A DNA stretch of 50,920 nt from Anaerolineae bacterium (GCA_025060135.1 JANXCY010000015.1:1-50920), one strand, 5' to 3'. Counted from the first letter of the stretch, positions 4,346 through 40,967 are shown. The notes: generated by a model from the letters alone, not told the origin. Program-made: numbers and translations.

Positions 4346-4366
4346 TAGCGCAGGCCGCCCGGCCTG
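4346..4366. repeat. REP-like palindromic element tagcgcaggccgcccggcctg
   Basis: 7-bp inverted arms caggccg/cggcctg. Same unit recurs at 28039-28083, 28996-29058 and elsewhere. Located in the convergent gap between cobB and the histidine kinase. Confidence 0.6.
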
Positions 4367-4424
4367 TCCGATCCAGGCGAACGACCTGCGCTGCAAGAAT
4401 GGGCGCGAATTTCCCGCTTTTGAC

Positions 4425-7370
4425 TCACCCCAACACCCGACGGACCATCTCTGCCAGACGCTCCACCTCAAAGGGTTTGCGGACCACCTCCAGCACCCCG
4501 GCTTGGCGGATGTGTTCCACTTCGGGGTCCTCACCGTAGCCAGTAACGGCGATTATCTTTACCTCGGGATTCTGCCGCCGCAGCGCCTCCACCAGCGCCG
4601 CGCCGCTCATCCCCGGCATGACCACATCGGTGAGCACCAGGTCCACCCGCTCCGCAGCGTACACCTCCAGCGCTTCCCACCCGTTCGCGGCCTCCAGCAC
4701 CCGGTAGCCCAGCCGCTGCAGGATCTCCCGCCCTGCCGCGCGCAGCGTCGCGTGATCCTCCACCAGCAGGATGGTCTCCCCCCGACCGGCATGCAGAAGG
4801 CCCTCGGCCGCGGGCTCCGGAAGGGAAACCTCCTCTACCAGCAAAGGCAGGTAGACCCGGAAGGTCGTCCCCTTCCCCACCTCTGTCTCCACGCCGATGT
4901 GCCCACCGTGTTGCTGGACGATGCCGTAGACCTGCGCCAACCCCAAGCCCGTTCCCAGGCCCCGCGGCTTGGTGGTGAAGAACGGCTCAAAAATGTGAGG
5001 GAGCACTTCCGGTGGGATGCCGGTACCGGTATCGGCAATCTCCAGGCAGACCCATTCCCCGGCTTCCATCCCTGCCAGAGGGGGCTGATCCTCCCATCCC
5101 ACCGTCAACCGGGAAAGCCCCAGACGGACCTCCCCGCCCTGGGGCATAGCATCCCGCGCGTTCAGCACCATATTGATGACAGCCTGCTGTAAGCGGGCCG
5201 GGTCGCCTCGGATGAGGAAGGGCCCCGCCCCGGTAACCAGCCGCAACCGAATGCTCTCGGGAATGGTCCGCTCCAGGACCTTGGTCAGTTCCTTGAGAAA
5301 CGGTGCCAGATCCATGGGGCGGGCTTCCATCGGCGCGCGACGGCTAAAATCCAATACCTGCTGTACCAGCTGAGTGGCCTGCTGGGATTCGCCAATGATG
5401 ACCCGTAGGAACTGGGACAGGTCGGAGGGGAGCCGGGGATGCTCCAGCGCCATCTGGGCATAGAGAATGATGGTGGTGAGAAGATTGTTGAAGTCGTGGG
5501 CGATGCCGCTGGCCAGTTGCCCTACGGCCGCCAGCCGTTCTTGTTGCTCCAGTTGCGCCTGGAGGAACCGCTCCTGGGTGACTTCCCGGACCACCAACAC
5601 CCACCCACCGCTGGGCCCGATGCCCGAGACCGGCCGGGCGGCCATCTGAAAGGTCCGCCGGAGATGAGAGAGCACGACCTCGTGCCAGCCATTTCCGGGT
5701 GGGGCGACCAAGAACTCCTCCAGCGGGCGACCCGCCAGGTGGGTAAGTACATCTCCCGGGTGCGCGTCGGTCAGTACCGGTAGCATCTCCTGCGCCGCCG
5801 GGTTGGTCAGCAGAATCCGATGATCCCCGTCCAGGAGGAGAACGCCTTCGGGGAGCCGTTCTACCAGGGCGGAGAGACGCGCCTCCTGCGCCGCCAGCGC
5901 GGCCCGCAGATCGGCCTGGTAAAGAGCCACGGCCAGTTGGGCGGAGACCTCCTGCAGAATCTCCGCGTGTTCCGTGGTCAGCATGCCCGGGCTGGCAGAA
6001 ACGATGGCCAGCCAGCCCTGCAGTTCACCCCCCACCCGCAGCGGTACCGCAATGTAGGACCGCACGCCCGCAGCCAGCAGAGCCCTCTGGGCCGGAGAGG
6101 GCGAGATGGCAAGAAGATCCGGCACAAAGATGATCTCACCCCGGCGGCTGGCCTCAATCTCCCAGTCCACCCCGGCCAGCGAGAGGCGAAACCCGGGGCC
6201 AATCCGAATCTCGCTATTCATCTGGCTCGCCAGGACCACGCCCTCACCGGTGGCTGGCTGATACGCCAGCACCCCCGCACCACTGCAGGGTACCAGGCGG
6301 CAGATGTACCGAAGCGCCTGGCAAGCCACCTCTTCGGGGGATTGAGCCGCCAGAATGGCCGAGTCCAGCGCCCGCAACGCCTGCAGCCGCTCTGCGTATC
6401 GCTGCAGCGCTTCTTCCGCCTGCTTCCACCCCGAGATCTCGGTGAAGACGGCCAGGGAACCCACGAAACGCCCCATTTCGTCAAAGCGAGGGACATCGCT
6501 GACCAGCACCGGTACCCGCCGTCCATCTTTCCGCAGCAGTTCCAGTTCGTATCGGTCGCTCAGGCCGCGCCTTCGCCGCCGCATGGCAGCCTGTACGATG
6601 GACCGCTGATCAGACGGGATAATAGCGTTTTGGTGCTGGCCGGTCAACTCCTGGGGCTCGTAACCCAGAAGATGCGCAGCAGCCGGATTGACGAACGTTA
6701 TATACCCGGCTTCATCCATTATAATGATGCCCTCGGCCAGGGAGTTGACAATTTCGGCATTGAAGGCCGCCAGGCGCCGCGCCTCCTGAAGGAGGCGGGC
6801 ATTCTGGAGGGCCAGGCCAATTTGAGTCGCCACGGTCTGCAGAAGCGCGGCGTCCTCCGGCGTGTAGGCGGCACGGCGGTAACTCCGGACCTCCAGCAGG
6901 CCTATGACCCGTCCCTCCACGACCATGGGGACGTAGAGGGCGGAACGAGCGCGGGGTTCCCTGGCCACAATGGCGTTGCCTTCTGCACCGGTCGGAGTCA
7001 GGTCGGGAATGATCTCCGGCCGGGCAGCCGCGATGGCCCGACTCCGGCCACTCCGCGCATCCGGGACATGGGCCAGCGGTGGGATCTGGCGGACGTCCAG
7101 TTCGGTCTCCCCCTCTGCCATAAACGCGGTGGTGATGGTCTGCCCCTGAGGGTCCAGAAGAGAGATGCCGAAGACCGGAGCGTCCACCAGCCGCCGTACG
7201 CCGTCCCGCGCGATGCGGTAGATGGCGAGGAGGTCCGGGGCGGCAGCCAGCGCCTGCCCGATTTCGTTGACAACTATCAGTTGTCGGGCCCGGCGCTCCG
7301 CCGCCACCCGGGCACGCATAGCGGCGATGGCCGCAGCAACTCTCTGGCCGATGAGGGTGAGCAGACGCAT
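4425..7370 (-). CDS. Cytoplasmic hybrid sensor histidine kinase/response regulator (GAF-PAS-GAF-PAS-HisKA-HATPase_c-REC)
   Basis: H-box GIAHDFNNLL, ATPase G-boxes DTGTGI / GLGLA, C-terminal receiver LLVEDHA...DLVLTDVVMPGMSG. No TM segments. Confidence 0.85.
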   Translation of the reverse strand: MRLLTLIGQRVAAAIAAMRARVAAERRARQLIVVNEIGQALAAAPDLLAIYRIARDGVRRLVDAPVFGISLLDPQGQTITTAFMAEGETELDVRQIPPLAHVPDARSGRSRAIAAARPEIIPDLTPTGAEGNAIVAREPRARSALYVPMVVEGRVIGLLEVRSYRRAAYTPEDAALLQTVATQIGLALQNARLLQEARRLAAFNAEIVNSLAEGIIIMDEAGYITFVNPAAAHLLGYEPQELTGQHQNAIIPSDQRSIVQAAMRRRRRGLSDRYELELLRKDGRRVPVLVSDVPRFDEMGRFVGSLAVFTEISGWKQAEEALQRYAERLQALRALDSAILAAQSPEEVACQALRYICRLVPCSGAGVLAYQPATGEGVVLASQMNSEIRIGPGFRLSLAGVDWEIEASRRGEIIFVPDLLAISPSPAQRALLAAGVRSYIAVPLRVGGELQGWLAIVSASPGMLTTEHAEILQEVSAQLAVALYQADLRAALAAQEARLSALVERLPEGVLLLDGDHRILLTNPAAQEMLPVLTDAHPGDVLTHLAGRPLEEFLVAPPGNGWHEVVLSHLRRTFQMAARPVSGIGPSGGWVLVVREVTQERFLQAQLEQQERLAAVGQLASGIAHDFNNLLTTIILYAQMALEHPRLPSDLSQFLRVIIGESQQATQLVQQVLDFSRRAPMEARPMDLAPFLKELTKVLERTIPESIRLRLVTGAGPFLIRGDPARLQQAVINMVLNARDAMPQGGEVRLGLSRLTVGWEDQPPLAGMEAGEWVCLEIADTGTGIPPEVLPHIFEPFFTTKPRGLGTGLGLAQVYGIVQQHGGHIGVETEVGKGTTFRVYLPLLVEEVSLPEPAAEGLLHAGRGETILLVEDHATLRAAGREILQRLGYRVLEAANGWEALEVYAAERVDLVLTDVVMPGMSGAALVEALRRQNPEVKIIAVTGYGEDPEVEHIRQAGVLEVVRKPFEVERLAEMVRRVLG

Positions 7371-7402
7371 ATCGTTTTTGTGGGATTCAACACGAAAAAG
7401 GG

Positions 7403-7437
7403 TTGACGTCTCGGTCAGAATGAGTTACAATCATTCT
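7403..7437 (+). promoter_or_regulatory. Sigma-70-like promoter TTGACG-17 nt-TACAAT for the zinc-ribbon gene, with a 7-bp inverted repeat AGAATGA-N7-TCATTCT (7417-7437) spanning the -10
   Basis: ttgacg 7403-7408, tacaat 7426-7431, spacing 17. The palindrome is centred on the -10. Lies in a divergent gap shared with the histidine kinase start. Confidence 0.5.
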
Positions 7438-7449
7438 CGGAGGCGAAAG

Positions 7450-7706: not shown

Positions 7707-8633
7707 TCACAGGATCACCTCCAGGACCCGGTCCCGCCCGGCTAGGTCCGGATAGAGGCGGGCGCGCGCCCCAGGTAGAGCAGTTCGCGCCAGAGCGAGT
7801 GCGTCGGCCCCCTGGCCGGCGCCGATTTCCATCAGCAGTACCCCACCCGGGCGGAGCCATCGGGCGGCATTTCTCAGCAACCGCCGGATCACCCGTAGTC
7901 CCCCGGGTCCGCCGTCCAGCGCCAGTCGGGGTTCGTACTCCCGCACGGATTCCGGCAGCGACCCCCATTCCTCCCCGGCCACGTACGGCGGATTGCTGAC
8001 CACCAGGTCCACCGGTCCCCTCAGCGGTGTAGCCAAGTCGGCCTGGAGGAAGTGAATGCGGTCGGCCACTCCATATCGCTGGGCATTCATTCGGGCGACC
8101 TCCAGCGCGGCATAGGAGAGATCGGTAGCGAAGACGCGAGCATGCGGCAACCGGACCGCCAGGGTTACCGCGATGCACCCGCTGCCTGTCCCCACATCCA
8201 CTGCGGTTCGGGGAGCCCATTCCAGGGCTCGCTCCACCAGCATTTCCGTCTCCGGGCGGGGGATGAGCACCGCCGGCGTAACGGTGAACTCCAGATCCAA
8301 GAACTCCACCCTTCCGGTCAGGTAGGGGAGCGGGACACCCGCCCTTCGGCGATCCAGCAGATCCGTATAGCGGACCCGTTCCTCGGCAGTGAGGAGGCGT
8401 TCCGGATGGGCCAGGAGCGCTGTTCGGCTGAGCCGGGTAACATGGGCCAGCAGGACCTCTGCCTCCAGCCGAGCCGTATCGGTGACGGAGGCCAGCCAGG
8501 CAGTCCCCTCCTGCAGCGCGGCGCCAACAGTGAGTGGTTGACAAACCATCATTTCCTGAAAGACCTGGAGCACAGGCCACCAGACCTGTGGATGCAGGTT
8601 CACCGTCCGAAACAGCCCGGGCAGCCCAATCAT
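7707..8633 (-). CDS. prmC: Release factor glutamine N5-methyltransferase
   Basis: VDVGTGSGCIA SAM motif and VSNPPY catalytic motif. Confidence 0.85.
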   Translation of the reverse strand: MIGLPGLFRTVNLHPQVWWPVLQVFQEMMVCQPLTVGAALQEGTAWLASVTDTARLEAEVLLAHVTRLSRTALLAHPERLLTAEERVRYTDLLDRRRAGVPLPYLTGRVEFLDLEFTVTPAVLIPRPETEMLVERALEWAPRTAVDVGTGSGCIAVTLAVRLPHARVFATDLSYAALEVARMNAQRYGVADRIHFLQADLATPLRGPVDLVVSNPPYVAGEEWGSLPESVREYEPRLALDGGPGGLRVIRRLLRNAARWLRPGGVLLMEIGAGQGADALALARTALPGARARLYPDLAGRDRVLEVIL

Positions 8634-9568
8634 CGGATGAGACCGATGGGACGGTACTGAGCGGGGCCAGTGCCGCCCAGGACCCGGGCTTTGTGAATTT
8701 TACCGGCTACCTTACCACCCCGCATGACAAATTCAATGTAGTCTGGGCCATCCGAGATGTAAAACGGATCGGTGGGCATGGGAGAATCCGGCTGAGCCAG
8801 AACATAATTGGCCTCTTCCCCCACCACTTCGCGAATGGGCTGTTGAGCCGGGTCGGGGATGGGAAAGACACAGCAATCCGAAGAGAACGTCAGGGGCTCC
8901 TGGAGAGGAATCAGCCGGAGGGTTTTCCCGTCTATGCAGAATGAGACGCCCAGAAGGTATCCCCCCATCTCTACTCCGGTCAGAGTGGCCGTTCCACTGT
9001 CCACAAAACCTACCGGCATCAGGATGGTGAGTTCTTTTTTCTGGGGCGCGGGCCCGATCAGGGCCTGCATCAATTGCTGAATCCATCCTCTGAGCTGGAT
9101 ACACTGATAGGCACGCTGATGCAACTTGTGAGTTACCCAATGTTGAAGGGCGGTCGCCAGTGCCTGACGGGCTGCATAGTAGCCGTTCAATGCTTCGGCG
9201 TGGTTTCCCATCAGATGATGGACCAGGCCAAGATTGAAAGCCGCCACAGCCTCGTTCTGCCGTTGATCCGGGGCTGGTTGGCGCCGAAATACTTCGTACG
9301 CCTGAAGGGCCAGACGGAGAGCGGGGCCGAAAGCGGCGGTTCCCCAGTAAATGTTACTCAAACAAAGCGCGGCCATTCCCTCACCAATGGAATGATGTCC
9401 CCGACGAGCAACCTCCAGCGCTTCCTGGGCCACCTGTGCTGCTTCTTCCAGTCGTCCCTTCCGCAGGAATTCTAATCCCCTGATGACCAGTTGGACGGCC
9501 GGGGCATCCTGATCCCTGCCGGTATACAGGAGGCTGGCTGGAATATCCCAAGAAATCTGGTAAGGCAT
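8630..9568 (-). CDS. Hypothetical protein, helical TPR-like N-terminal half, unassigned C-terminal half; 4-nt overlap with prmC
   Basis: ORF track only. No recognisable catalytic motifs. Translational coupling to prmC. Confidence 0.45.
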   Translation of the reverse strand: MPYQISWDIPASLLYTGRDQDAPAVQLVIRGLEFLRKGRLEEAAQVAQEALEVARRGHHSIGEGMAALCLSNIYWGTAAFGPALRLALQAYEVFRRQPAPDQRQNEAVAAFNLGLVHHLMGNHAEALNGYYAARQALATALQHWVTHKLHQRAYQCIQLRGWIQQLMQALIGPAPQKKELTILMPVGFVDSGTATLTGVEMGGYLLGVSFCIDGKTLRLIPLQEPLTFSSDCCVFPIPDPAQQPIREVVGEEANYVLAQPDSPMPTDPFYISDGPDYIEFVMRGGKVAGKIHKARVLGGTGPAQYRPIGLIR

Positions 9569-15121: not shown

Positions 15122-15201
15122 ACGGGTTCTCCCACAGAGGAAAAGCTCAGGACCGCAGCGAAACCGCTACTCGCTCCCTAATTACATTTTGCCTTGTAGT
15201 G

Positions 15202-15236
15202 CAGGCCATCAGGCCTGGATACAGGCGAACCGCCTG
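15202..15236. repeat. Two REP-like hairpins (caggcc-atca-ggcctg; caggcg-aac-cgcctg) in the atpD-atpC spacer
   Basis: Inverted repeats read directly. Same CAGGCC/GGCCTG arm family as the other intergenic copies. Confidence 0.55.
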
Positions 15237-15266
15237 CGCTATGGATCGCTCAAGTACGTAACTCCG

Positions 15267-19024
<3,758 letters not shown>

Positions 19025-28018: not shown

Positions 28019-28038
28019 GAAGGCCGTCCATCCCGTAC

Positions 28039-28083
28039 GCAGGCCGCCCGGCCTGCCAGATGTAGCGCAGGCCGCCCGGCCTG
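28039..28083. repeat. Two tandem REP-like elements (gcaggccgcccggcctg) between hisA and hisF
   Basis: Direct match to the 4346-4366 unit. Confidence 0.65.
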
Positions 28084-28185
28084 TTGAGGGAGAGACAATC
28101 CGCTCTACGCCAAAGGTTAGCACCATTGGCCGAAAAGCCTTTTCTTCCAGCATGACATCAGTAACTCCGGAAGGGAGCAAAGAAG

Positions 28186-28998
28186 ATGCTGGCCAAACGC
28201 ATTATCCCCTGTCTGGACGTGAAGGACGGACGGGTGGTCAAGGGAATCCACTTCTGCGAGTTGCGGGATGCGGGCGACCCGGTAGAGCAGGCCCGGGTGT
28301 ACGACGCCGAAGGGGCCGATGAACTGGTCTTTCTGGACATAACCGCTTCTCATGAGCGCCGGGACATCGTGGCCGATATGGTGCGTCGGGTGGCCGATGA
28401 AATCTCCATCCCGTTCACCGTCGGTGGTGGGTTACGCACCGTTGAGGACATCCGGGCCATCCTGATGGCGGGTGCGGATAAAGTCTCTATTAACACCGCT
28501 GCGGTCCTCCGGCCAGAACTGATCACCGAAGCTGCCCGGCGGTTCGGCAGCCAATGCATCGTGGTCGCCATTGACGCCAAACGAGTTACGGAACGGGATC
28601 TCCAACCCTCCAGGCCCGGGCGAGCAGAAGGACTTCCACCGGTTACCTGGGAAGTCTACACCCACGGTGGACGCACACCGACAGGCCGGGACGCGGTCGC
28701 CTGGGCACAAGAAGCAGAAGCGCGCGGGGCCGGCGAAATCCTGCTGACCAGCATGGACTGTGACGGCACCCAGGACGGCTACGACCTGGAACTGACCCGG
28801 GCCGTGGCTTCGGCGGTCTCCATTCCGGTCATTGCTTCTGGGGGAGCGGGGCACCCGGAGCACTTCTACCAGGTGCTGACCGAGGGTCTGGCCAGCGCGG
28901 CGCTGGCGGCCTCGCTCTTCCACTACCGCCAGTTGCGCATCGCCGACCTCAAAGCCTACCTGGCCGCGCGCGGGGTACCGATCCGGCAGACAATATAG
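28186..28998 (+). CDS. hisF: Imidazole glycerol phosphate synthase cyclase subunit
   Basis: [12 protein letters not shown](L/I)R. Carries a ~13-15 aa insertion after AIDAKR relative to typical HisF. Confidence 0.9.
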
Positions 28999-29058
28999 CG
29001 CAGGCCGCTGTACCAGGCCGCCCGGCCTGCGGAATGTAGCGCAGACCGCCCGGCTTGG
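28996..29058. repeat. REP-like elements (tagcgcaggccgctgtaccaggccgcccggcctg ... tagcgcagaccgcccggcttgg) between hisF and hisIE
   Basis: Direct match, variant copies. Confidence 0.6.
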
Positions 29059-29100: not shown

Positions 29101-29718
29101 ATGGAACCCGAGATCGCCTGGGATGAGCGGGGGCTGGTGCCAGCGGTGGTGCAGGATGCCCGTACTGGTCAAGTCCTTATGCTGGCCTACATGAACGCCG
29201 AAGCCCTGGCCCGCACGCTGGCAACCGGTGAGACCTGGTTCTGGAGCCGGAGCCGAGAGGAACTGTGGCACAAAGGAGCCACGTCGGGGAATACCCAGCG
29301 GGTGGTGGAAATCCGCTACGATTGCGATGCCGATGCCCTGCTGGTGCGGGTGGAGCCCCGCGGCCCAGCCTGCCACACCGGCCATCCCACTTGCTTCTAC
29401 CGCTCCCTCTCGGGCACTCCGGAAGAATCGGTGGAAGTACCGGTGCTGGAGCACCTCTGGGCCATCATCCAGGACCGCAGAGCCCGGCCCCGGGAGGGCT
29501 CCTATACCTGCCACCTGTTGAACGCTGGCGAACCGGAGATCCTGAAGAAACTGGGCGAGGAGGCCATAGAAGTGATTGTCGCTGCCCAATCCCAGGGCAA
29601 CCCCCGATTCATCAGCGAACTGGCGGACCTGGTATACCACATCCTGGTCCTCCTGGCCGCGCGCGGCCTTTCCTGGGCCGACGTGGAAGCCGAACTGGCG
29701 CGGCGGTTTCCGAAATAA
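29101..29718 (+). CDS. hisIE: Bifunctional phosphoribosyl-AMP cyclohydrolase / phosphoribosyl-ATP pyrophosphatase
   Basis: HisI core [17 protein letters not shown]...CHTG followed by a HisE MazG-like tail. Confidence 0.9.
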
Positions 29719-29746
29719 CCGGACCGACGCGCGGATCCGACTGGAC

Positions 29747-29765
29747 ACAGGCCAACCAGGCCTGT
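29747..29765. repeat. REP-like hairpin acaggcc-aacca-ggcctgt
   Basis: Inverted repeat between hisIE and trkA. Confidence 0.5.
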
Positions 29766-29789
29766 CAGCAGTAGATTGAGGGAAAATCT

Positions 29790-31129: not shown

Positions 31130-31261
31130 CCGGAAATCTAACGGGATGGCAGAGGCCCCCTCGTCGCAATCCCGCTGATTTTCCCCCGGACAACCAGCAC
31201 TCACTCCTGGCATCCGTGCCCATCAGGTATGACGTCCTCACAGGAGTGAGGATGACCATGG

Positions 31262-31350
31262 GCCGCAGGCCGCAGGCCTGTGCGTACAGATTAACAGCCT
31301 GCGCCCCAGGCACCGCAGGCCACCGCAGCGCAGGCCTGGCGGCCTGTACC
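31262..31350. repeat. Structured GC-rich repeats: ~45-bp imperfect palindrome (cgcaggcctgtgcgtacagattaacagcctgcgcc, 31266-31308) plus a REP-like unit at 31327-31350
   Basis: A near-copy of the 45-bp unit occurs in direct orientation at 40921-40967. Confidence 0.55.
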
Positions 31351-31645
31351 CCCCTCTCGCTACACGAAAACGTCAGGACTATGGCTATGTCCCCCCTGCA
31401 TCGGAGACCGGCGTTCCAGAGAACAGCGACCGTCCTGGTCTCAATGTTCGCTGAGAGCGTTGACAAAGCCTGGATTGGAGACGCGGAGACCCGGTTGTTG
31501 CGGAATGGCCTGGGATGAGTATAATATCCCCTGGAGCAGATGCCCCCGAGCCGTGCCCTGCAACTATTGGGGATGCCTCGTCCCCAGAACGGCCAGGCGG
31601 GCTGGCTGAATCGCCGAAAACCGGAATCCAGGCAGCCCATCCGCG

Positions 31646-32335
31646 ATGCCCGAGAAAATTCTGGTCATTGACGATGACGAAAACACCCGTCTGTTAATCC
31701 GGCGCCTCCTGAGCCAGGATTATCTGGTCTATACTGCCGCCAACGGCCCGGAAGGGCTGACCCTTTTCCCCCAGATCGCTCCAGACCTGGTCATCCTGGA
31801 TATTATGATGCCCGGTATGGATGGTCGGGAGGTGTGCCGCCGATTGCGACGCACCTCCACCGTCCCAATCCTCTTCCTGACTGCCCTGGACACTGAAAAA
31901 GACATCGTGGACGGCCTGATTGCCGGAGGGGACGACTATCTGGTCAAGCCTTTCGGGCCTGAAGAACTGCGAGCCCGGGTCTTCGCGCTCCTGCGGCGGG
32001 CCCGAATGCCAGCCCCTCAACCAGAGATTCTCCGGTTTGGCAACGGAGACCTCATCATCAACCGGGCCGAGCAGAAGGTCTTCGCCTATGGAAAAGAAGT
32101 TCCCCTTAGCCCCATAGAATACAACCTGTTGCTGTTTATGGCCCAGCGGGCCGGAGAAATCCTTTCCCCGCGCACCCTCTACCGCGCGATCTGGGGAAGT
32201 ACCGAGTCCGATACCAGCCTTCAGGTCGTCAAATGGTATATCTGGCACCTCCGTAAAAAGATAGAGGCCGACCCACGGAAAGCCCGTTTCATCATCACCG
32301 AGTGGGGAAAAGGCTACCGGTTCTCCCCTTTTTGA
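31646..32335 (+). CDS. OmpR/PhoB-family response regulator (REC + winged helix), orphan
   Basis: ILVIDDDE...DLVILDIMMPGMDG and C-terminal GKGYRF wing. Confidence 0.85.
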   Translation: MPEKILVIDDDENTRLLIRRLLSQDYLVYTAANGPEGLTLFPQIAPDLVILDIMMPGMDGREVCRRLRRTSTVPILFLTALDTEKDIVDGLIAGGDDYLVKPFGPEELRARVFALLRRARMPAPQPEILRFGNGDLIINRAEQKVFAYGKEVPLSPIEYNLLLFMAQRAGEILSPRTLYRAIWGSTESDTSLQVVKWYIWHLRKKIEADPRKARFIITEWGKGYRFSPF

Positions 32336-32495: not shown

Positions 32496-32638
32496 CCAAA
32501 ATGAACCCGGGCAATTCTCAACGCGGCGATTGGTTGTAAATCAAATATAAGAAATAAATACGGAGGAAAAAGAACATGGGCGGGTGGGAGCGTCTCATTC
32601 CGTTGGCCGATGCCAGATACCCAGAAAGGATACAACCA

Positions 32639-35600
32639 ATGAGGCGATTATCTCTTAGTGTTTTCATCACCCTGGGCATGGCACTGGTAGCCTTCGGCCT
32701 GGCGGCCTATCTGGCCCGTCCGGTATTGGGGCAATCCGCTTCCTGCGCAGTGCAATACACCGTGCGGAACGATTGGGGTACCGGCGCAACGGTCGATGTG
32801 GTCATTTATAACTATTCCGGTTCCCCCATCAACGGCTGGACTCTGACCTGGACTTTTCCCGGCAATCAGCAGATAACGCAAATGTGGAATGCCACGTACA
32901 CCCAGAATGGGCAGAACGTGGCAGCCACGAACGTGGATTACAACGCGACGATCCCGGCCAACGGAGGATCGGTCAATTTCGGATTCAACCTTGCTTATTC
33001 AGGAACCAATGGGAGTCCGACCAATTTTGCCTTGAACGGCCAGGCCTGTACGCTGGCCGGAGCCACACCAACGCCAACCGCAACCCCTACTCGCACACCA
33101 ACGCCAACCGCAACCCCCACTCAGACGCCGACACCTACACAGACACCGCCAAGTACCCCTCCCCCTACGGCTACACCGACTCCCACATCCACGCCTGTAC
33201 CCACTCCCACGCCTGTTATCTCCAATACTATTGGGGTGAATAAAACCGCCCTGCCGGCTCCCGGATGCCGGGAGTACACCGTAACGCTGAGTGTGACCGG
33301 CAACCCACCCCCCAAGCCGGTGGACGTCATCCTGGTGATTGACCGCTCCGGCAGCATGAATGAGCCCATCCCAGGCGATTCCAAGAAACCCATAGATTAT
33401 GCTAAAGAGGCGGCCCTCGCCTTTGCCCAGCAGATTCTCGCCAACTCCAACAACCGGGTGGCGATTGCCAGTTATTCCGATTCCGCTACGCTGAACCAGG
33501 GTCTGACCAACAACCTGACCGCTATACAGAATGCCATCAACGGCCTGAGCGCGAGTGGCTATACCAACATCCAGCAGGGCTTTTACGTCGCCCGCATGCA
33601 TATGCAGAGCGAGGGCCGTCCCATCACCACTACGGCCCGGGCCATCATTTTCCTGACGGATGGGGTGGCGAATCGCTCCGGAAGCAACCCGGTAACCCAG
33701 TGTGATACGTGGCCTACTACTCACACGACCTGTACCATCGCGGCCTATACCGAAGGGCAAACCGCTCAGTCCCAGGCGGTGATCTTCACCGTCGGACTGA
33801 TGGGCGCGATCACTCCCACCTACCAGAGTTCCTACTGGGTGGCCCGCGACACCCTGATCCGGGCCCAGAACGGCGGCTACTGGGAGACGCTCAGCGCGGC
33901 GAATCTAACCGCCATCTACAACCAGATTGCCACCCAGGTGAATCCGGCAGCGCTGGAAGCCGTGGCGACCGATGTGGTGGCTCAGGGCTTCCAGATCGTT
34001 CCCGGTAGTCTGAGCACCCCCCAGGGCACGGTGACCACTAACGGGAACGTTATCACCTGGACCCTGGGCACGGTGGTGAGTGGAACGGTCACGCTGACCT
34101 ATCGGGTGGTGGCGCTTCCGGGATATTCGGGTTCTCTGCCCACCAATGCCTCCGGTGTGCTGAAGTATGAGGACATCTATGGCAGCCAGCATCAGTTGTC
34201 TTTCCCGGTACCCACTGTGAATGTGCCGACCGATCTGGTCGCCAATGCCGGGCCGGATCGTCAGATTTCTATGGGCGGTTCGGCCCAGATCGGTGGGAAT
34301 CCTACTGCATCGGGTGGAATTCCGCCTTACACCTATAATTGGACACCCTCCACCGGCCTGAGCTGTACCAATTGTCCCAATCCCACCGCCTCGCCGACTC
34401 AGGATACGACCTACACTGTGAGCGTCTGCGATAGCGATGGCTGTGAGGCAACCGATAGCGTCTTCGTGGATGTTCTCCCCCAGGTCGCGCTTCACAAACG
34501 CGCGGCACCGACCAGCCGGCCTGAGCCTGGCGGCGTCTTTACCTACACGCTGACCATCACCAATACTTCCTCCGAAGCGGTAACCATCATCAACCTCAGC
34601 GATACATACCCGCTGAGCACACAGTGCCAGAATCTGGTGAGCACCTCCCTGGCCTCCGGAGCCTCCGTCTCCTGCCAGTACACGAGGGTCCACACCCTGC
34701 CCGCAACTTACAATAACACCGCCACGGTGACGGTGCGGGATAACGAAGGGAACGCAGCCTCCGCTCAGGCCAGTGCTTCGGTGCAGGTTACAGATGTCGT
34801 TCCTACCCCGGCCAACGTGGCCGTCGTTAAGGACGCCAATCCCACCAGCCTGCCAGAGCCTGGTGGCCGGGTGACCTTTACCGTGCAGGTAACCAACAAC
34901 TTTATAGAGCCGCTGACGCTGACCAGCCTGGTGGACAGCGTGCACGGCAACCTGCACAATCGGGGCACCTGCTCGGTCCCGCAGACCCTCCCGGTGAACG
35001 GCTCCTACACCTGCTGGTTCACGGCCACCGTCTCCGGCAACGCCGGGTACGTGGAGACGGATGTGATTACGGCAACGCTGCGGGACGATGAGAACAACAC
35101 GGTGCAAAAGTCGGACGACGCAACGGTAACGCTCACCGACGCGCGGCCCTCGGTCTCTATCGTCAAGACAGCGTCGGTCTCCAGCATGACCGAGCCCGGC
35201 GGAGTGGTGACCTTCACGCTGACGGTGGCAAACACCTCCGTTGAGACGGTGACCATCACCGTCCTCACGGATACCTACCCGCTGAGTTCGCAGTGTCAGG
35301 CGCTGATAGGTCGGGCGTTACCTCCGGCTGGTTCCGCATCCTGCCAGTATGCGGTGACGCTGACCAATGCGGGCGCTTACACCAACGTGGCTTCCGTGAC
35401 GGTGCGGGACGACGAGAACAACCCGGCCACTGCCACCGATAATGAGACGGTCACTATTGTAGACCGGAAGCCCACCGCGGCGGACGTGGAGGTGGTGAAG
35501 GACGCCAACCCCACCAGCGTGGCCGAGCCGGGCGGCGTGGTCACCTTCACGGCGCGGGTGACGAATCGGTTCGTGGAGCCGCTGACGCTGACCAGCCTGG

Positions 35601-37375
35601 TGGACAGCGTGCACGGCAACCTGCACAATCGGGGCACCTGCTCGGTCCCGCAGACCCTCCCGGTGAACGGCTCCTACACCTGCTGGTTCACCGCCACCGT
35701 CTCCGGCAACGCCGGGTACGTGGAACGGGATGTCATTACGGCGACACTGCAGGACGACGAGAATAACCTGACGGAGGATTCCAACAGCGCGGAGGTGGCA
35801 GTTGCCGGTATCCGCCTGACCAAGTCGCCTGATCCGGCCATCGTCCACGCAGGCGATAGCGTCACTTACGTTTATACGGTGACAAATCCGGGCGTAAAGG
35901 CCCTCACTGTCCAGAGCCTCACGGACAATCGCTGCAGCCCGGTCGCTTTCCGGAGCGGAGACACCGATGGAGATAACCGGCTGGATCCGGGCGAGACTTG
36001 GGTCTACACTTGCCAGCAGACGATTACTGCGGACACGACCAACATCGCCACCGTGGTCGGTGTGGATGAGGGCGGAGCCCGGGTCACGGCCCAGGCCACA
36101 GCCTTCGTGGACGTCATCACGCCGGCGATTGACGTCTCCCTCTCCGCACCGCTGACCACCACCAGTGGCGTCTTGCTGCCCTACACCATCGTCTTCACCA
36201 ATACCGGCGATACGCCGCTCTATAACGTCGTGGTGGCCGATGACCTCACCGGCTTTGTCTGGACCGGCACGCTGGCGCCAGGCGAAAGCCATACCTATGG
36301 GGTCAGTTACACGGTCCAGACGGGCGTGGTCGGCCCGGTGATCACCAACACGGTAACAGCGACCGGCACGGACAGGCTGGGTAAGACCGTCCGGGATACT
36401 GACTCGGTCGTTACCCTCGTGGTGGTGGACGAGGACGCGATCCCAGAGGGCCCAGAGGACAGCGGCGACATCGACGGCGATGGCATTCCCAACTACTGGG
36501 ACCTGGATGACGACCAGGATGGCATCCCGGATGTCCAGGAAGGCTGGGACGATACCGACGGCGACAGCATTCCGGATTGCCGCGATAGCGACTCGGACAA
36601 CGACGGCATCCCGGATGCCATAGAGGGCTGGACCGACACCGACGGTGACGGCATCCCGGACTTTCGCGACCGGGATTCAGACAACGACGGGATCCCGGAT
36701 GCAGTTGAGGGCTGGGACGACCTGGACGGCGACGGTATTCCCAACTTCCGTGACCTGGATTCGGACGATGATGGCATCCCAGACGCCGTAGAGGGCGCAG
36801 TGGATACCGACGGCGACGGCATCCCGGACTTTCTGGACTGGGATAGCGATGCCGACGGCATCCCGGATTCCATTGAAGGCTCCGAGGACGCCGATGGCGA
36901 CGGGCTGCCCAACTTCCGCGACACCGATTCCGATGGGGATGGGATCCCGGATGCTATAGAGGGCTGGGGCGACACCGACGGCGACTATGTGCCCGACTAT
37001 CTGGACCAGGACAGCGACAACGATGGAATCCCGGATTCGGTAGAGGGCGCGGGTGACGCCGATCGGGATGGCACCCCCAACTTCCGCGACCTGGATTCCG
37101 ATGGCGACGGCATCCTGGATAAGGACGAGTATAGCGAGGGAGCCAGCAATCCGCTCGGCTGGTGCCCGCCCACCCATTCGGTCTGCTTCAACAACGACGT
37201 GGACGGCGACGGCATCCCCAACTTCCTGGACACCGACTCCGACGGCGACGGGAAACCGGACCAGGACGAGGGCACCGGCGATACCGACGGCGACGGTATC
37301 CCCAACTGGCTGGACCGTGAAGACCGCCGCTGGTTCCGGGTCTACCTGCCACTGGTCATTCGGATGAGCCAGTAA
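32639..37375 (+). CDS. Giant secreted multidomain protein: signal peptide, CBM2 carbohydrate-binding module, Pro/Thr linker, VWA domain, 4 DUF11-type repeat modules, ~12 Asp-rich TSP3-like Ca-binding repeats, conserved C-terminal [11 protein letters not shown] tail
   Basis: Signal peptide [29 protein letters not shown]2 region [14 protein letters not shown]...[16 protein letters not shown] linker. VWA motif [15 protein letters not shown]11 repeats [17 protein letters not shown]. Repeats of [27 protein letters not shown]. The ORF track start 32576 is an alternative. Confidence 0.85.
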
Positions 37376-37460: not shown

Positions 37461-40400
37461 ATGGCTCAATTCCGCAAATCACTGGTGATGCTTCCGGTTC
37501 TGCTGGCCCTGGCGGCTCTGGTGTTCCTGCTGACCCTGAACGCTCCACCCACCCGGGCGAACGGAGGTTGTACTTTCACCGTGAACTCTACAAGCGACGC
37601 TGGCGACGCGAACCTCGGCGATGGGCAGTGTAATGATGGCACAGGAAAGTGCACGCTGCGCGCCGCGATTCAGCAGGCGAACATCTCTCCCTGCTCCGGC
37701 CACGACACTATCCAATTTTCCACGGCCATATCCGGCCAGGTCATCACGATATCCTCAGCGCTGGACCTGCTGGATGAAGATGGGGTCACCATCAACGGCG
37801 ACATCAACGGTGATGGCCGACCGGACATCCGGCTGCGGTATGGATCCGGTGAGATCAGCGGCCTCCGCGTCCGCTCGTCCAACAACGTGATCCGGGGCCT
37901 GAGTATCGGGGGCTTTCCCTCCGGCGCGGCGGGTATCTACCTCCAGGGTACCGCCTGGGCGGTGAACAGCAACACCATCATCAGTAACTTCATCGGCGTG
38001 GACCTGGATGGGACAACCGCCGTTTCCAATGTGACGGGCATTTACGTAGAATCCGGCCTCAGCGGCGCGGCGGGCAACGTGATCCGGGGCAACCTGGTCG
38101 CGGGCAACAGCGGGCGCGGCATCGCTGTGGAGGGACCGGCCACCGGCACGCTAATTATCGCGAACCGGGTTGGCACTAACCTGGCTGGCACCGCGGCGCT
38201 GACCAATACTGGGAGCGGCATCTGGATCAGCGCGACAGTGAGCGTGACGGTCCAGGAGAACCTGGTCTCGGGCAACAACGGCAACGGGATTTCCATCTAC
38301 AGGGCCCAGAATACCGCCGTCCTGAGCAACATCGTGGGCCTGAACGCGGCCGGAACGGCGGCGCTGCCCAACTTGGGCACGGCGGGGATCCTGATTGACC
38401 AGAACGCCAGCGGCACCACCCTGCGCGGCAACACCGTCTCCGGCAACCGGAATAACGGTATCTACCTGGGTTCAGGCGTGACCGGGACGGTCATCGCCGG
38501 CAACCGCATCGGCACCAACCCGGCCGGCACGGTAGGCATCGGGAACGGGATCGCCACGAACCGGGACGGCATCCAGATTGACGGCGCCTCCAACACCACC
38601 GTCGGTGGCCCTAACCCCGGAGACCGCAACATCATCGCCGCGAACAAGCGAGCGGGCATCCTGATTGCCGGTGATACCGCTGACAACAACGTCATCCAGA
38701 ACAACTACATTGGCACCGACGTGTCCGGCCAACTGGACATTGGCAACGGCTACCCTCTAACCGTAGAGGATACCGGCCACGGCGGCATCTACATCGGGGA
38801 TGGCTCGGATAACAACCTGATCCAGAGCAACCTTGTTCGTTTCAACTACATCGGTATCCGCTTCTCGGGCGTCGGCAATATCCCGCCACAGGGCAACCAG
38901 GTTCTGAGCAACACCATCACCAATAACGACATGTACGGCATCGCCAGCCGGGTGACGCACAATAACACCAGCCGGCCCACACCCGCAGGCGGCGATACCC
39001 TCATCGCCCACAACGTCATCACCGGAACCGGCTACCCCGCGATGGGCACCGGCATCGGCATCTACAACCTGGGCGCCTCGCCACATATCCTGATGAACAC
39101 CATTGCGTCCAACAAGGACATCGGCATCGTCAACCGGGTGGAGTTTGGTGTAGACGGTCCGGCGAACGCCTCAGACGACATCCTCTCAGTCCCGTACATC
39201 TTCGGGAACACCATTGACGGCAACGGGAACGACGGCATCCAGTCCCGGGATACAGCGCCGCTCAACCGGTACACGCTGCACGTGGATAACAACATTGGCA
39301 ACAACAACGGCCAGCCGGACGTCTCCCAGCGCTGGTTCGGCGCGGTGGAGGCGATCACCGGTACTCAGCCGATTATCGCTGGCCTGGTGGTGACGGTGAC
39401 CAAGACCGGGGGTGTCGGATCCGCCTGCGCGGTGGGCGCCTGCTCGGGCAACGTCCAGGACGGCGGCGCATGGGGGCCGGCGGGCTTTGTCTACACCGAC
39501 GTGGAAAAGCCCGATGGCACCAGCACCTGGTTTGAGATCATTGAGTTTGAGATAGAATGGGATGGCCGCTGGATCACCTACACACCCCACTACGTCCAGG
39601 TCGGTGGAGCGCACGGGGGCGCGCGGGCCTTCTCCTTTGACGGCGTCACCACCACCCAGGAGGTTACCGGCGACGTGGGCCTGCCCACCTGCATCCCGAC
39701 CGGTATCCTGAACAACCCGCAGCACTCCTTCTGCCGCTACCAGATCGCGCAGGTGCGGGTCTATCGCCCCGGTACAGATGAGGACCAGGACGGCATCCCC
39801 AACGAGCAGGAAGGGACCGGCGACACCGACGGCGACGGCATCCCCGACTACCTGGACACCGACTCCGACAACGACGGCATCCCGGACGCCGTGGAAGGGA
39901 CCAGGGACACCGACGGCGATGGCATCCCCGACTTTCGCGATCCGGATTCCGATAACGACGGCATCCCGGACGCCGTGGAAGGGAACGTGGACACCGATGG
40001 CGATGGCACGCCGGATTACCGCGATACCGACTCGGACAACGACGGTATCCCGGATGACGTAGAATACGATAACTGCCAGACTCCGCCCTGCGACGCCGAC
40101 GGCGATGGCATCCCCGATTTCCGCGAGCGGGATAGCGACAACGACGGCGTGACCGACAACGCCGAAGGCACCGGCGACACCGACGGTGATGGCATTCCCA
40201 ACTACCGGGATACCGACTCGGACAACGATGGCATCCCCGACGGCCAGGACCCCGATGACGACGGCGACGGTATCCCGGATACAGCAGAAGGGCTGACGGA
40301 TAATCCGGGCAACGACTGGGACTCCTCGGTGGACACCGACGGCGACGGCCTGCCGGACTATCTGGACCGCGATAGCGACAACGACCAGGTGCCGGACTGG

Positions 40401-40805
40401 ATGGAGGCCGGGTGCACGCAACAGCCCTCCGGGAATCAGACCTGCCCCAATCCCAACCGGGATAGCGATGGCGACGGGAAACCGGACCGCCTAGATAACG
40501 ACGATGATGGGGATGGCATCCCGACGGCGAACGAATACTACGCCGGTTCCACCGACCAGCCCTTCTGCACCGATCCCGCTGGGCTGGATACCGACCGGGA
40601 CGGCACCGTCAACTGCCAGGACAACGACGTGGACGGCGACGGCATCCCCAACTACCTGGACCGGGACTCGGACAACGACGGCACACCGGACCGGAACGAG
40701 AGCACGACCCAGCCCAACCCGCCGCCGTTCGGGCATGGGAATGTCCCGGCGTGGATTGATCCGATGTGGCGGATCTATCTGCCGCTGGTGCTGCGGAACT
40801 ACTGA
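37461..40805 (+). CDS. Giant secreted protein: signal peptide, CSLREA-type N-terminal motif ([11 protein letters not shown]), right-handed parallel beta-helix repeats, ~14 Asp-rich TSP3-like repeats, conserved C-terminal [11 protein letters not shown] tail
   Basis: Signal peptide [24 protein letters not shown]. Repeated NxxxGNxxxGNxxxGI beta-helix rungs. [15 protein letters not shown] repeats. C-terminus aligns with the upstream giant protein. Confidence 0.85.
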
Positions 40806-40843
40806 TTCGCATTTGCGTCCTTCCACGCCGCTGTTGTTGAACC

Positions 40844-40876
40844 AAAAGCCGGGGGCTGTGGCCCCCGGCTTTTTGA
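40844..40876. terminator. Bidirectional intrinsic terminator aaaagccgggggc-tgtg-gcccccggcttttt
   Basis: 9-bp GC stem flanked by A and T runs, in the convergent gap with the response regulator. Confidence 0.75.
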
Positions 40877-40920
40877 TGCGAGCATGTCCGCAAAAGCCTG
40901 CTCTCCGAGAATGGAGCGGT

Positions 40921-40967
40921 GTACCGCAGGCCGCCAGGCCTGTGCGTGCAGGCTCACAGCCTGCGCC
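40921..40967. repeat. Second copy of the ~45-bp structured repeat (ccgcaggccgccaggcctgtgcgtgcaggctcacagcctgcgcc)
   Basis: Direct-orientation near-copy of 31266-31308. Confidence 0.55.

What the first reader, a model, noticed from the sequence alone, without database searches (positions are those of the whole stretch)
4346..40967. Family of REP-like palindromic elements (arms CAGGCC(G) / (C)GGCCTG) occupying many intergenic gaps, including inside the his and atp operons
Copies with 6-7-bp GC-rich inverted arms and short variable loops occur at 4346-4366 (after cobB), 15202-15236 (two copies, atpD-atpC), 28039-28083 (two, hisA-hisF), 28996-29058 (two to three, hisF-hisIE), 29747-29765 (hisIE-trkA), 31266-31350 and 40921-40967. 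Several share the longer consensus tagcgcaggccgcccggcctg. Their placement is exclusively intergenic and often within operons. This is typical of REP/BIME-like elements that modulate mRNA stability, termination or polarity. They could also serve as targets for a RAYT-type transposase encoded elsewhere.
Basis: seen in the sequence. Interest (0 to 1): 0.55.

Follow-up and report, generated by a model that had tools for sequence, protein, structure and literature searches.

The report
GTAG-headed REP hairpin repeats in Anaerolineae
The short GC-rich hairpins scattered between genes on this contig are a real family of "REP" repeats, the small palindromic elements copied around bacterial genomes by a dedicated transposase; this family has not been described before but is an ordinary example of a well-known kind.

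Summary
The window holds nine exact CAGGCC-N3-5-GGCCTG hairpins against about 0.1 expected, and all lie in the 9.6% of the sequence that is non-coding.

It is a 22-nt element, GTAGCGCAGGCC-GCCC-GGCCTG, with a 5' GTAG-type head. It is often paired 4-7 nt away with an inverted, non-identical partner, (G)CAGGC-N3-5-GCCTGCGCTAC. A model built only from other genomes finds about 20 units in 10 gaps here.

The window is a whole contig of an Anaerolineae MAG. Close relatives have hisF and hisIE overlapping (ATGA). This contig instead has about 100 nt of these repeats between the two genes, so they were inserted.

Units with the same head and stem flank REP-associated tyrosine transposase (RAYT) genes in soil metagenome contigs; all 7 RAYT loci examined carry GTAG-headed hairpins. 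Stem pairs covary across the superfamily.

No RAYT lies in the window, and the genome's own RAYT could not be checked. Effects on mRNA are inferred, not shown.

Verdict: a new member of a known kind, of modest interest.

The parts
4345..4394 (.). Head-out REP heterodimer between convergent genes (Sir2 stop at 4302, histidine kinase stop at 4425). The A unit is ATAGCGCAGGCC-GCCC-GGCCTG at 4345-4366, with its head on the + strand. A 7-nt spacer follows. The inverted B unit is CAGGCGAACGACCTGCGCTGC at 4374-4394.
   Evidence: CM R1, built from other genomes, scores 46.7 bits, E 5e-10. Folding gives DNA -14.9 and RNA -26 kcal/mol.
8567..8613 (.). Degenerate REP dimer (GGAGCACAGGCC-ACCA-GACCTG, then tggat, then GCAGGTTCACCGTCCGAAAC). 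It lies between the TPR gene stop (8630) and the likely true prmC start (about 8552), both on the - strand.
   Evidence: CM 16.3 bits, E 0.03. Sequence. The PrmC_N domain starts at residue 39 of the long ORF, with Met-Met at residues 28-29.
15196..15242 (.). Head-out REP heterodimer inside the atpD-atpC spacer (both genes on the - strand). The A unit is GTAGTGCAGGCC-ATCA-GGCCTG at 15196-15217. The inverted B unit is CAGGCG-AAC-CGCCTGCGCTAT at 15222-15242.
   Evidence: CM 52.5 bits, E 2e-11. RNA fold of the transcribed strand is -25.6 kcal/mol, z -4.4.
16705..16725 (+). Single REP unit GGAGCG-CAGGC-AGTTA-GCCTG between the WD40/CHAT gene and atpD. The TAA stop codon of the WD40/CHAT gene (16718-16720, - strand) lies in the hairpin loop.
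   Evidence: CM 16.6 bits.
28035..28105 (+). Two tandem A units in the hisA-hisF spacer: GTACGCAGGCC-GCCC-GGCCTG at 28035-28055 and the consensus copy GTAGCGCAGGCC-GCCC-GGCCTG at 28062-28083. A decayed partner follows, ending in ...CCGCTCTAC at about 28105.
   Evidence: CM 41.3 bits for 28060-28108 and 19.3 bits for 28040-28055. RNA fold -33.2 kcal/mol, z -4.6.
28995..29057 (+). REP cluster filling the hisF-hisIE spacer. It holds a truncated head ATAGCGCAGGCC at 28995-29006, whose TAG is the hisF stop codon. Next is the unit GTACCAGGCC-GCCC-GGCCTG at 29010-29029. Last is the degenerate unit GTAGCGCAGACC-GCCC-GGCTTG at 29036-29057.
   Evidence: Relatives L141 and L142 have hisF/hisIE overlapping (ATGA) with no spacer, so about 100 nt is inserted here.
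29742..29764 (+). Single unit with a degenerate head, TGGACA-CAGGCC-AACCA-GGCCTG, in the hisIE-trkA spacer.
   Evidence: Folding.
31260..31346 (.). REP dimer plus partial units in the 516-nt gap between the second trkA gene (stop at 31129) and an OmpR-type regulator (start at 31646). The A unit is GGGCCG-CAGGCC-GCA-GGCCTG at 31260-31280. The decayed B unit is CAGATTAACAGCCTGCGCCC at 31287-31306. A truncated head GCACCGCAGGCC lies at 31310-31321. The unit GCAGCGCAGGCC-TGGC-GGCCTG lies at 31325-31346.
   Evidence: CM 30 bits and 21.3 bits. The 88-100-aa ORF called across it has no Pfam match.
40921..40969 (.). Best-preserved head-out heterodimer, between convergent genes (stops at 40805 and 41165). 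The A unit is GTACCGCAGGCC-GCCA-GGCCTG at 40921-40942. The inverted B unit is (G)CAGGCT-CAC-AGCCTGCGCCAC at 40948-40969.
   Evidence: CM 66.1 bits, E 6e-15. Two-hairpin fold: DNA -18.7 and RNA -31.4 kcal/mol.
45498..45527 (+). Degenerate relic unit GGAGCACAGAC-TGCCC-AGCCTGCAATGC in the 551-nt gap upstream of the HEAT-repeat gene.
   Evidence: CM 14.6 bits, E 0.08. Sequence. This is a weak call.

Best explanation
These are repetitive extragenic palindromes of the GTAG-tagged class. The unit is about 22 nt: a single-stranded GTAG(CG) head followed by a 6-7-bp GC-rich stem and a 3-5-nt loop. Units occur singly, in tandem clusters, or as head-out inverted heterodimers, which are BIME/REPIN-like.

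The inferred origin and spread run through a REP-associated tyrosine transposase (RAYT, also called TnpA-REP; an HUH/Y1 enzyme). This enzyme recognises the hairpin and its 5' GTAG guide on single-stranded DNA, then cleaves and rejoins it. Copies therefore accumulate where insertion is tolerated, which is downstream of genes and between cistrons.

Once present, the copies are transcribed as stable RNA hairpins of -13 to -36 kcal/mol. These most plausibly act as barriers to 3'-5' exonucleases or as modulators of intercistronic expression.

Shown here:
- the family, its anatomy and its excess over chance;
- its extragenic placement;
- insertion relative to close relatives;
- stem covariation across the superfamily;
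- RAYT genes flanked by units with the same head and stem in other organisms.

Inferred: that this genome has, or had, such a RAYT, and any effect on RNA.
For: Excess and placement: nine exact hairpins against about 0.1 expected, all in the 9.6% non-coding fraction.

Independent detection: a covariance model built only from 15 dimers of other MAGs and metagenomes recovers 12 sites in the window at E < 0.1. Eleven are intergenic.

Gap types: REPs occupy 2 of 2 convergent gaps, about 8 of 16 unidirectional gaps and 0 of 2 divergent gaps. This matches the published pattern for REPs (PMC3733652).

GTAG head and stop codon: the GTAG head supplies the hisF stop codon, a trait described for GTAG REPs (PMC3733652).

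Insertion: hisF-hisIE carries a REP-only insert of about 100 nt that is absent from relatives with 84-86% HisF identity.

RAYT link: L092 holds a 167-aa ORF flanked by inverted GTAGCGCAGGCC-TTCA/TTTA-GGCCTG units. Its product and P0006 pass the NCBIfam equivalog NF047646, 'REP-associated tyrosine transposase'. Both keep the HUH motif, Tyr115, Asn119 and the GTAG-contact residues W94, Q95 and R104 of E. coli RayT (PMC6006769). All 7 RAYT loci inspected are flanked by GTAG[CT]GC-headed hairpins whose stems differ by compensatory changes.

Covariation: 5 of 7 stem pairs show double changes, and 90% of cells are paired against 75% in shuffles, with 0 of 500 shuffles reaching the observed value.
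Against: No RAYT gene lies in the 50.9-kb window. None lies in any of the roughly 25 loci that carry the GCC[CA]-loop subfamily. The cognate enzyme for this exact subfamily and genome is therefore unseen.

Many copies have degenerate heads (ATAG, GTAC, GGAG) or decayed partners. This fits an old or inactive population as well as an active one.

Dimer spacers of 4-7 nt are shorter than in most described REPINs.

No transcript or 3'-end data exist, so the RNA-level role is untested.
Confidence: 0.85

Rival explanations
1. These are fossil REPs. They belong to the same family, but the genome has lost its RAYT and the copies are decaying relics that persist only because they are harmless or mildly useful as RNA hairpins.
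For: Heads are often degenerate: ATAG at 4345 and 28995, GTAC at 28035, 29010 and 40921, and GGAG at 8567 and 16705. Partners are decayed at 28084-28105, 31287-31306 and 8594-8613. No RAYT lies in the window. A dimer upstream of purH sits at an orthologous site in six diverged contigs, which shows long persistence. E. coli lineages that lost tnpA-REP keep their REPs (PMC3333891).
Against: A perfect consensus copy exists at 28062-28083. The hisF-hisIE insertion is specific to this lineage relative to 84-86% relatives, which argues for fairly recent activity. Only 51 kb of the genome was seen.
Confidence: 0.25
2. These are native regulatory hairpins that evolved in place at each locus and are not mobile. 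Candidates are intrinsic terminators, attenuators, or operators for a palindrome-binding regulator.
For: The hairpins are stable. They sit downstream of genes and between cistrons, where terminators and processing sites occur.
Against: The same asymmetric 22-nt sequence recurs next to unrelated genes and in other phyla. No T-run follows any copy. None lies in a divergent promoter gap. Orthologous spacers in relatives lack them. Units with identical head and stem flank RAYT genes. There is no Rfam match.
Confidence: 0.04
3. These are chance GC-rich palindromes in a 63% G+C genome, or miniature inverted-repeat elements derived from a DDE insertion sequence.
For: The genome is GC-rich. One look-alike occurs in ileS coding sequence.
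Against: Expectation from composition-matched simulations is about 0.1, against 9 observed. The conserved head is asymmetric. The units are only 22 nt long, with no terminal inverted repeats beyond the hairpin and no target-site duplications.
Confidence: 0.02

Closest known systems
GTAG-tagged REP superfamily (Di Nocera et al. 2013, PMC3733652), e.g. E. coli REP/BIME (GTAG-3), Pseudomonas GTAG-1, Thermomicrobium roseum GTAG-23, Opitutus terrae GTAG-17 to -20
   Same: Shared features are an unpaired 5' GTAG tag, a 6-7-bp stem and a 3-5-nt loop. Units occur as singletons, head-out (HH) dimers and clusters. Heterodimers are made of partners with different stems or loops. Location is mainly between unidirectional and convergent genes and close to 3' ends. 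The TAG of the tag serves as a stop codon. The phyla Chloroflexi and Verrucomicrobia are already known hosts.
   Different: The sequence GTAGCGCAGGCC...GGCCTG was not found in the searchable literature as a REP. The host class is Anaerolineae, not Thermomicrobia. [quoted passage not shown] Dimer spacers are very short (4-7 nt).
REPIN-RAYT systems (Bertels & Rainey 2011, PMC3116915; PMC3337134)
   Same: Two inverted REPs can fold as one long hairpin. The elements are non-autonomous. In sister subfamilies a RAYT gene is itself flanked by the REPs. Some copies persist at orthologous sites.
   Different: The partners are not identical, so this is a heterodimer. Many units are singletons or tandem repeats. 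The RAYT of this genome was not observed. The same head and stem occur in three phyla, whereas REPIN-RAYT systems are described as mostly vertically inherited.
E. coli RayT / TnpA-REP and its REPtron (Ton-Hoang et al. 2012, PMC3333891; Messing et al. 2012, PMC3479197)
   Same: The RAYTs flanked by GTAGCGCAGGCC units are homologous to E. coli RayT (tblastn E 2e-11). They keep the HUH motif, the catalytic Tyr, Asn119 and the GTAG-contact residues. The gene sits between inverted REPs, like a REPtron.
   Different: Identity to E. coli RayT is only about 25-30%. The REP stem is shorter and perfectly paired, whereas the E. coli REP is an imperfect palindrome and a mismatch in it is needed for robust RAYT binding (PMC3333891). 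The enzymes come from Acidobacteriota contigs, not from this genome.
Rho-independent terminators
   Same: Both are GC-rich hairpins downstream of genes.
   Different: No U-tract follows. The sequence is repeated, a GTAG head is conserved, and copies lie inside operons between co-transcribed genes.

Membership tests
REP (repetitive extragenic palindrome), GTAG class | A short (20-40 nt) palindrome able to form a stem-loop, with a stem of about 5-13 bp and a loop of 2-20 nt | tested here: met
   Units of 21-23 nt with a 6-7-bp stem (G)CAGGCC/GGCCTG(C) and a 3-5-nt loop. Folding z-scores run from -2.3 to -5.0. The stem covaries across the superfamily: 5 of 7 pairs change on both sides, with 0 of 500 shuffles as high.
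REP (repetitive extragenic palindrome), GTAG class | A conserved GTAG or GTGG tetranucleotide 0-2 nt 5' of the hairpin foot and not base-paired | tested here: met
   The consensus is GTAG-C-GCAGGCC. Exact GTAG occurs at 15196, 28062 and 29036. One-base variants (ATAG, GTAC, GGAG) occur elsewhere. B partners end in ...GCGCTAC, GCGCTAT or GCGCCAC, which is GTAG, ATAG or GTGG on the other strand.
REP (repetitive extragenic palindrome), GTAG class | Many copies per genome, far above chance | tested here: inconclusive
   Within the 50.9-kb contig there are about 20 units in 10 gaps against about 0.1 expected.
REP (repetitive extragenic palindrome), GTAG class | Extragenic location, mostly downstream of genes (unidirectional and convergent gaps) | tested here: met
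   All 9 exact hairpins and 11 of 12 model hits are intergenic, with 9.6% of the window non-coding. None lies in a divergent gap. Two overlap stop codons.
REP (repetitive extragenic palindrome), GTAG class | A cognate RAYT gene in the same genome, flanked by the same REPs (a REPtron) | not testable with these tools
   There is no RAYT in the window or in loci of the GCC[CA]-loop subfamily. The feature is met for sister subfamilies with the same head: all 7 RAYT loci are flanked by GTAG[CT]GC hairpins, and 3 of them have the identical stem GCAGGCC. Those RAYTs pass NF047646.
BIME / REPIN (REP doublets) | Two REPs in inverted orientation separated by a short linker and able to fold as one long hairpin | tested here: met
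   Four clear dimers lie at 4345, 15196, 31260 and 40921, plus two decayed ones at 8567 and 28062, all with heads outside. The same architecture occurs in 15 dimers from other MAGs and metagenomes. A long-hairpin minimum-free-energy fold is predicted for 4343-4396 and 15194-15244.
BIME / REPIN (REP doublets) | Mobility as a unit, shown by presence/absence at orthologous sites | tested here: inconclusive
   Insertion of REP singletons and a cluster is shown for hisF-hisIE against L141 and L142. No dimer presence/absence case was found. One dimer is conserved at an orthologous purH-upstream site. There is no polymorphism between two assemblies of the same population.
E. coli-type BIME (y/z REPs with IHF or gyrase-binding linkers) | Specific y, z1 and z2 REP sequences and linker motifs | tested here: not met
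   The sequences are unrelated to E. coli REPs beyond the GTAG tag, and the linkers are 4-7 nt with no conserved motif. The family works like a BIME but is not a member of that family.
Intrinsic terminator | A GC-rich hairpin followed by a T-run | tested here: not met
   No terminator-like site coincides with any REP in 27900-31700. Sequences read show no T-run after the hairpins.

The most novel reading that the evidence does not exclude
The window's repeats may be one branch of a single, very widespread 'GTAGCGC-headed' REP/RAYT lineage that has moved between phyla. The identical 21-22-nt unit, with the same two-part dimer architecture, occurs in several Anaerolineae/Thermoflexales MAGs and on three contigs (four loci) of a Verrucomicrobiota MAG. 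The same head and stem, with a different loop, is abundant in soil Vicinamibacterales (Acidobacteriota), where it flanks RAYT genes.

This would contradict the current picture of REPIN-RAYT systems as almost strictly vertically inherited. In this Anaerolineae genome the elements are still remodelling operons, having split the translationally coupled hisF-hisIE pair. All are laid down in one orientation across 41 kb regardless of gene direction, as expected for insertion coupled to replication-fork single-stranded DNA.
Probability: 0.3. Interest if true: 0.55.

Novelty: new member of a known kind. Interest (0 to 1): 0.3.

Why it matters
REPs are among the commonest non-coding repeats in bacteria, but they are characterised almost only in Proteobacteria.

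This finding documents a dense, well-defined family in an uncultured Anaerolineae (Chloroflexota) genome and ties its head and stem to a specific RAYT clade. This has three practical uses:
- It explains spurious small ORFs and assembly breaks.
- It gives a marker for binning and strain typing.
- It flags intercistronic hairpins that may tune expression of the his and atp operons.

The wider point is that the same 22-mer occurs in Chloroflexota and Verrucomicrobiota MAGs, and its head and stem in Acidobacteriota contigs. With complete genomes, this could test whether REP/RAYT systems really are inherited only vertically.

Tried and rejected
- **Gene calling.** A GC3-based gene caller gave wrong strands for atpC and trkA. 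It was replaced by a codon-usage model trained on Pfam-confirmed genes.
- **Statistics script.** The first run timed out and was rerun.
- **Source genome.** The single genome-contig scan did not return the source genome, so genome-wide counts and a RAYT search in the MAG were impossible.
- **RAYT motif search.** A strict HUH...Y-x-NP regular expression found nothing because it was too strict.
- **Pfam check of RayT.** E. coli RayT gives no Pfam hit at 1e-3, so NCBIfam NF047646 was used instead.
- **RAYT homology search.** tblastn and phmmer with E. coli RayT and the L092 RAYT, run against the window and 135 loci, found only L092.
- **More RAYT loci.** Six further RAYT homologues were looked up in the hope of finding one flanked by the GCC[CA]-loop subfamily. 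All had REP flanks, but of other loops or stems.
- **Organism names.** The cluster look-up gave no organism names for the RAYTs. The host of L137 was inferred from SdhA homologues instead.
- **Known RNA families.** Rfam gave no family.
- **Terminators.** The terminator scan found nothing at the REPs.
- **Strain polymorphism.** Comparing the Logan assembly L015 with the window gave 9 SNPs, none in a REP.
- **Phage vector.** A viral-contig scan gave 3 isolated hits and no RAYT, so there is no sign of a phage vector.
- **Literature.** A search for the literal sequence found only unrelated cloning primers.
- **Long-hairpin constraint.** The idea that head A and tail B of a dimer covary, which would show selection for the long hairpin, was rejected by eye. 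GTAC pairs with GTGG at 40921/40969 and GTAGT with ATAGC at 15196/15242, and neither change is compensatory.

Full report
**1. What is in the sequence**

A search for CAGGCC, 3-5 bases, GGCCTG finds nine exact copies at 4351, 15202, 28040, 28068, 29014, 29748, 31266, 31331 and 40927. Order-1 and order-3 Markov simulations of the window give 0.09-0.17 on average and never more than 2. CAGGCC is also the commonest 6-bp hairpin stem in the window. The 12-mer GTAGCGCAGGCC with up to 2 mismatches occurs 26 times against 7.2 expected, and none of 100 shuffles reached 26.

A gene map from a codon-usage model trained on those genes makes the window 90.4% coding. All nine hairpins lie in the remaining 9.6%, in seven separate gaps (P about 7e-8).

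**2. The unit is bigger and has two forms**

Aligning the copies shows a conserved, unpaired 5' head. The consensus is GTAG-CG-CAGGCC-GCCC-GGCCTG, called type A here. Type B is an inverted REP with its own GTAG-type head on the other strand.

A and B lie 4-7 nt apart with the heads outward. This is the 'HH heterodimer' of the REP literature (PMC3733652), also known as a BIME or REPIN.

**3. Independent census**

I built a covariance model from 15 such dimers taken only from other MAGs and metagenomes and scanned the window with filters off.

- Hits on the plus strand: 40919 (66 bits), 15194 (52.5), 4343 (46.7), 28060 (41.3), 31258 (30), 29034 (21.4), 31323 (21.3), and 28040 and 29014 (19.3 each).
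- Weaker hits: 16703 (16.6 bits, the higher-scoring hit being on the minus strand), 8565 (16.3) and 45498 (14.6).
- All of these are intergenic. For 8565 this holds because the PrmC N-terminal domain begins at residue 39 of the long ORF, so the true start is probably near 8552.
- The only coding hit is 50229-50286 in ileS (about 20 bits). It is ordinary conserved coding sequence (VKEVVQVAQAERLLSY) with no insertion, so I treat it as a chance resemblance.

Overall there are about 20 units in 10 of roughly 21 gaps. Both convergent gaps are occupied, about half of the unidirectional ones, and neither divergent one.

Two units overlap stop codons. The TAG of the head at 28995-28998 is the hisF stop. 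The TAA of the WD40/CHAT gene lies in the loop of the unit at 16705-16725. The literature notes that GTAG REPs often supply TAG stops (PMC3733652).

**4. Where the window comes from, and evidence of insertion**

HisF of the window is identical to NCBI proteins MCS7178861.1 and MDW8069289.1, labelled 'MAG... [Anaerolineae bacterium]'. Its longest contig is 50,920 bp, so the window is a whole MAG contig. A Logan assembly of sequencing run SRR15826899 carries the same region with 9 SNPs, none in a repeat.

The nearest relatives have 84-86% HisF identity (L141, L142). In them hisF and hisIE overlap by ATGA. The window instead has a spacer of about 100 nt made only of REP units. The repeats were therefore inserted into a formerly translationally coupled gene pair in this lineage.

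Persistence is also seen. A dimer upstream of purH in L141 sits at an orthologous site, with the same flank ...CGCTAC-(A/G)TTATCTGCAAA, in five other diverged contigs.

**5. Relatives elsewhere**

The exact 21-mer TAGCGCAGGCCGCCCGGCCTG occurs in only 14 places among the species-representative genomes. Seven are in Anaerolineae/Thermoflexales MAGs. Four are on three contigs of a Verrucomicrobiota MAG (STL-VER8), with the same two-part architecture.

Loops TTCA (81) and TTTA (32) dominate, mostly in soil and rhizosphere samples. They are usually paired with an inverted partner GCAGCCC-TGAA-GGGCTGCGCTAC. Ten units with loop GCCA and one with GCCC carry the window-type B partner.

**6. Link to a transposase**

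Searching all fetched DNA with E. coli RayT, taken from NC_000913, found one hit: L092, a 1.1-kb soil contig (tblastn E 2e-11). Its 167-aa ORF carries PDHVHLL and RYIVENP. It is bracketed by GTAGCGCAGGCC-TTCA/TTTA-GGCCTG units on the left and their inverted copies on the right.

The protein and its homologue P0006 exceed the curated cut-off of NCBIfam NF047646, 'REP-associated tyrosine transposase' (101 and 98 bits against 80). An alignment with E. coli RayT keeps the HUH histidines, Tyr115 and Asn119. It also keeps W94, Q95 and R104, residues implicated in reading the GTAG guide (PMC6006769).

Six more homologues were looked up. All seven RAYT loci, including L092, are flanked by GTAG[CT]GC-headed hairpins:

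| Stem | Loci |
|---|---|
| GCAGGCC | L092, L137, L144 |
| GCAGCCC | L138 |
| GCAGGGC | L143 |
| GCTGACC | L139 |
| GCCGACC | L145 |

. The host of L137 is most likely Vicinamibacterales (Acidobacteriota), because its SdhA is 89-93% identical to named MAG proteins.

Partner units were extracted by their tail alone, without requiring any pairing. They show compensatory changes at 5 of 7 stem pairs. Cells are 90% paired against 75% in shuffles, and 0 of 500 shuffles reach the observed covariation. The hairpin itself, not just the sequence, is what is conserved.

**7. What could not be shown**

No RAYT is encoded in the window or in any locus of the GCC[CA]-loop subfamily. Whether this genome has an active RAYT is therefore open. 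The degenerate heads and decayed partners are compatible with an ageing population.

**8. Likely mechanism**

Established work on E. coli TnpA-REP shows binding to single-stranded REP DNA and cleavage and rejoining that depend on the GTAG tag (PMC3333891, PMC3479197). By homology of both the enzyme clade and the element anatomy, I infer the same origin for these units.

At the RNA level the units and dimers fold stably, at -13 to -36 kcal/mol with z-scores of -2.6 to -4.6. No T-run follows them and there is no Rfam match.

The most plausible effect is protection of upstream message from 3' exonucleases, or modulation of expression between cistrons, as described for REPs in enterobacteria. That comparison rests on my own knowledge and was not tested here. 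Copies that overlap stop codons (hisF, the WD40/CHAT gene) are the best candidates for an effect on translation termination.

**9. Comparison and verdict**

The elements meet every testable defining feature of GTAG-class REPs and of BIME/REPIN-type doublets. They are not members of the E. coli y/z BIME families. Chloroflexi and Verrucomicrobia are already listed as hosts of GTAG REPs (PMC3733652), but this sequence family was not found in the literature.

The class is well known, so this is a new member of a known kind.

Two loose ends raise the ceiling slightly. First, the same 22-mer occurs in Chloroflexota and Verrucomicrobiota MAGs, and its head and stem in Acidobacteriota contigs. Second, every unit and every A-to-B dimer in the window has the same orientation irrespective of gene strand.

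Noticed in passing
window 4345-45527 (all REP sites): Every singleton has its GTAG-type head on the + strand. All six dimers, including the two decayed ones at 8567 and 28062, run A then B on the + strand. This holds even though the flanking genes are on the - strand at 4.4-22.4 kb and on the + strand at 22.6-40.8 kb. GC skew is negative across the whole window. The pattern might reflect insertion coupled to the replication direction. However, L102 carries dimers in both orientations within 8 kb, so the rule is not general.
   Followed up: partly
L001, L007, L009, L011 (Verrucomicrobiota MAG STL-VER8); L137 and many soil loci (Vicinamibacterales-like): The identical 21-22-nt A unit and the two-part dimer occur on three contigs of a Verrucomicrobiota MAG. 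The same head and stem with TTCA or TTTA loops is very abundant in soil metagenomes. Sharing of one REP type across phyla is unexpected if these systems are inherited vertically. Contamination from MAG binning is not excluded.
   Followed up: partly
window 492-880: A different intergenic mosaic of hairpin repeats. Two 93-nt copies lie 124 nt apart and contain GTCGGCCTTCGCCGAC and GTCGGCGCAGGCCGAC. There are also three copies of GCTGATTTCCAATCAGC and two of GCGCCATYCCGCCCGGCTTCGTGGC. The GGTCGGCGCAGGCCGACC hairpin also occurs in the relative L141 at 9468-9485.
   Followed up: partly
window 1577-1601 (- strand): A single GTAG-GGGCAGGG-CTTGC-CCCTGCCC hairpin lies in an intergenic gap. It resembles a second 'GTAGGGG...' class of GTAG-headed hairpins seen in several fetched loci.
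   Followed up: no
L141 7439-8000 and 9490-9520: In the closest relative the hisA-hisF gap is 556 nt. It holds a REP-like ATAGCGTTGGCC-GCCG-GGCCGG whose TAG is the hisA stop. It also holds long inverted repeats (GGCCAGGCCGTAAACGGCCTGG / CCTGGCCGTTTACGGCCAGG; GCAAAGGGCGCAAAGAACGCAAAG and its complement). The perfect palindrome GTAGGACAACTG-CTCG-CAGTTGTCCTAC lies at 9490-9520.
   Followed up: no
window 31216-31518: Gene callers annotate an 88-100-aa ORF across the REP cluster. It has no Pfam match and is probably a spurious ORF created by the repeats.
   Followed up: partly
window 36466-37120 and 39809-40054: There are 84-nt in-frame tandem repeats (encoding D-x-D-x-D-G-I-P-D-type thrombospondin type-3-like calcium-binding repeats) in the two very large secreted proteins at 32576-37375 and 37461-40805. 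A further 120-nt tandem repeat lies in the TPR gene at 1-237.
   Followed up: no
window 50803-50905: A G/C homopolymer hairpin, GGGGGGCCCC-cccaagc-GGGGCCCCCC, lies just after the ileS stop codon. Low-complexity C/A runs follow at the contig end. This may explain why the assembly ends here.
   Followed up: no
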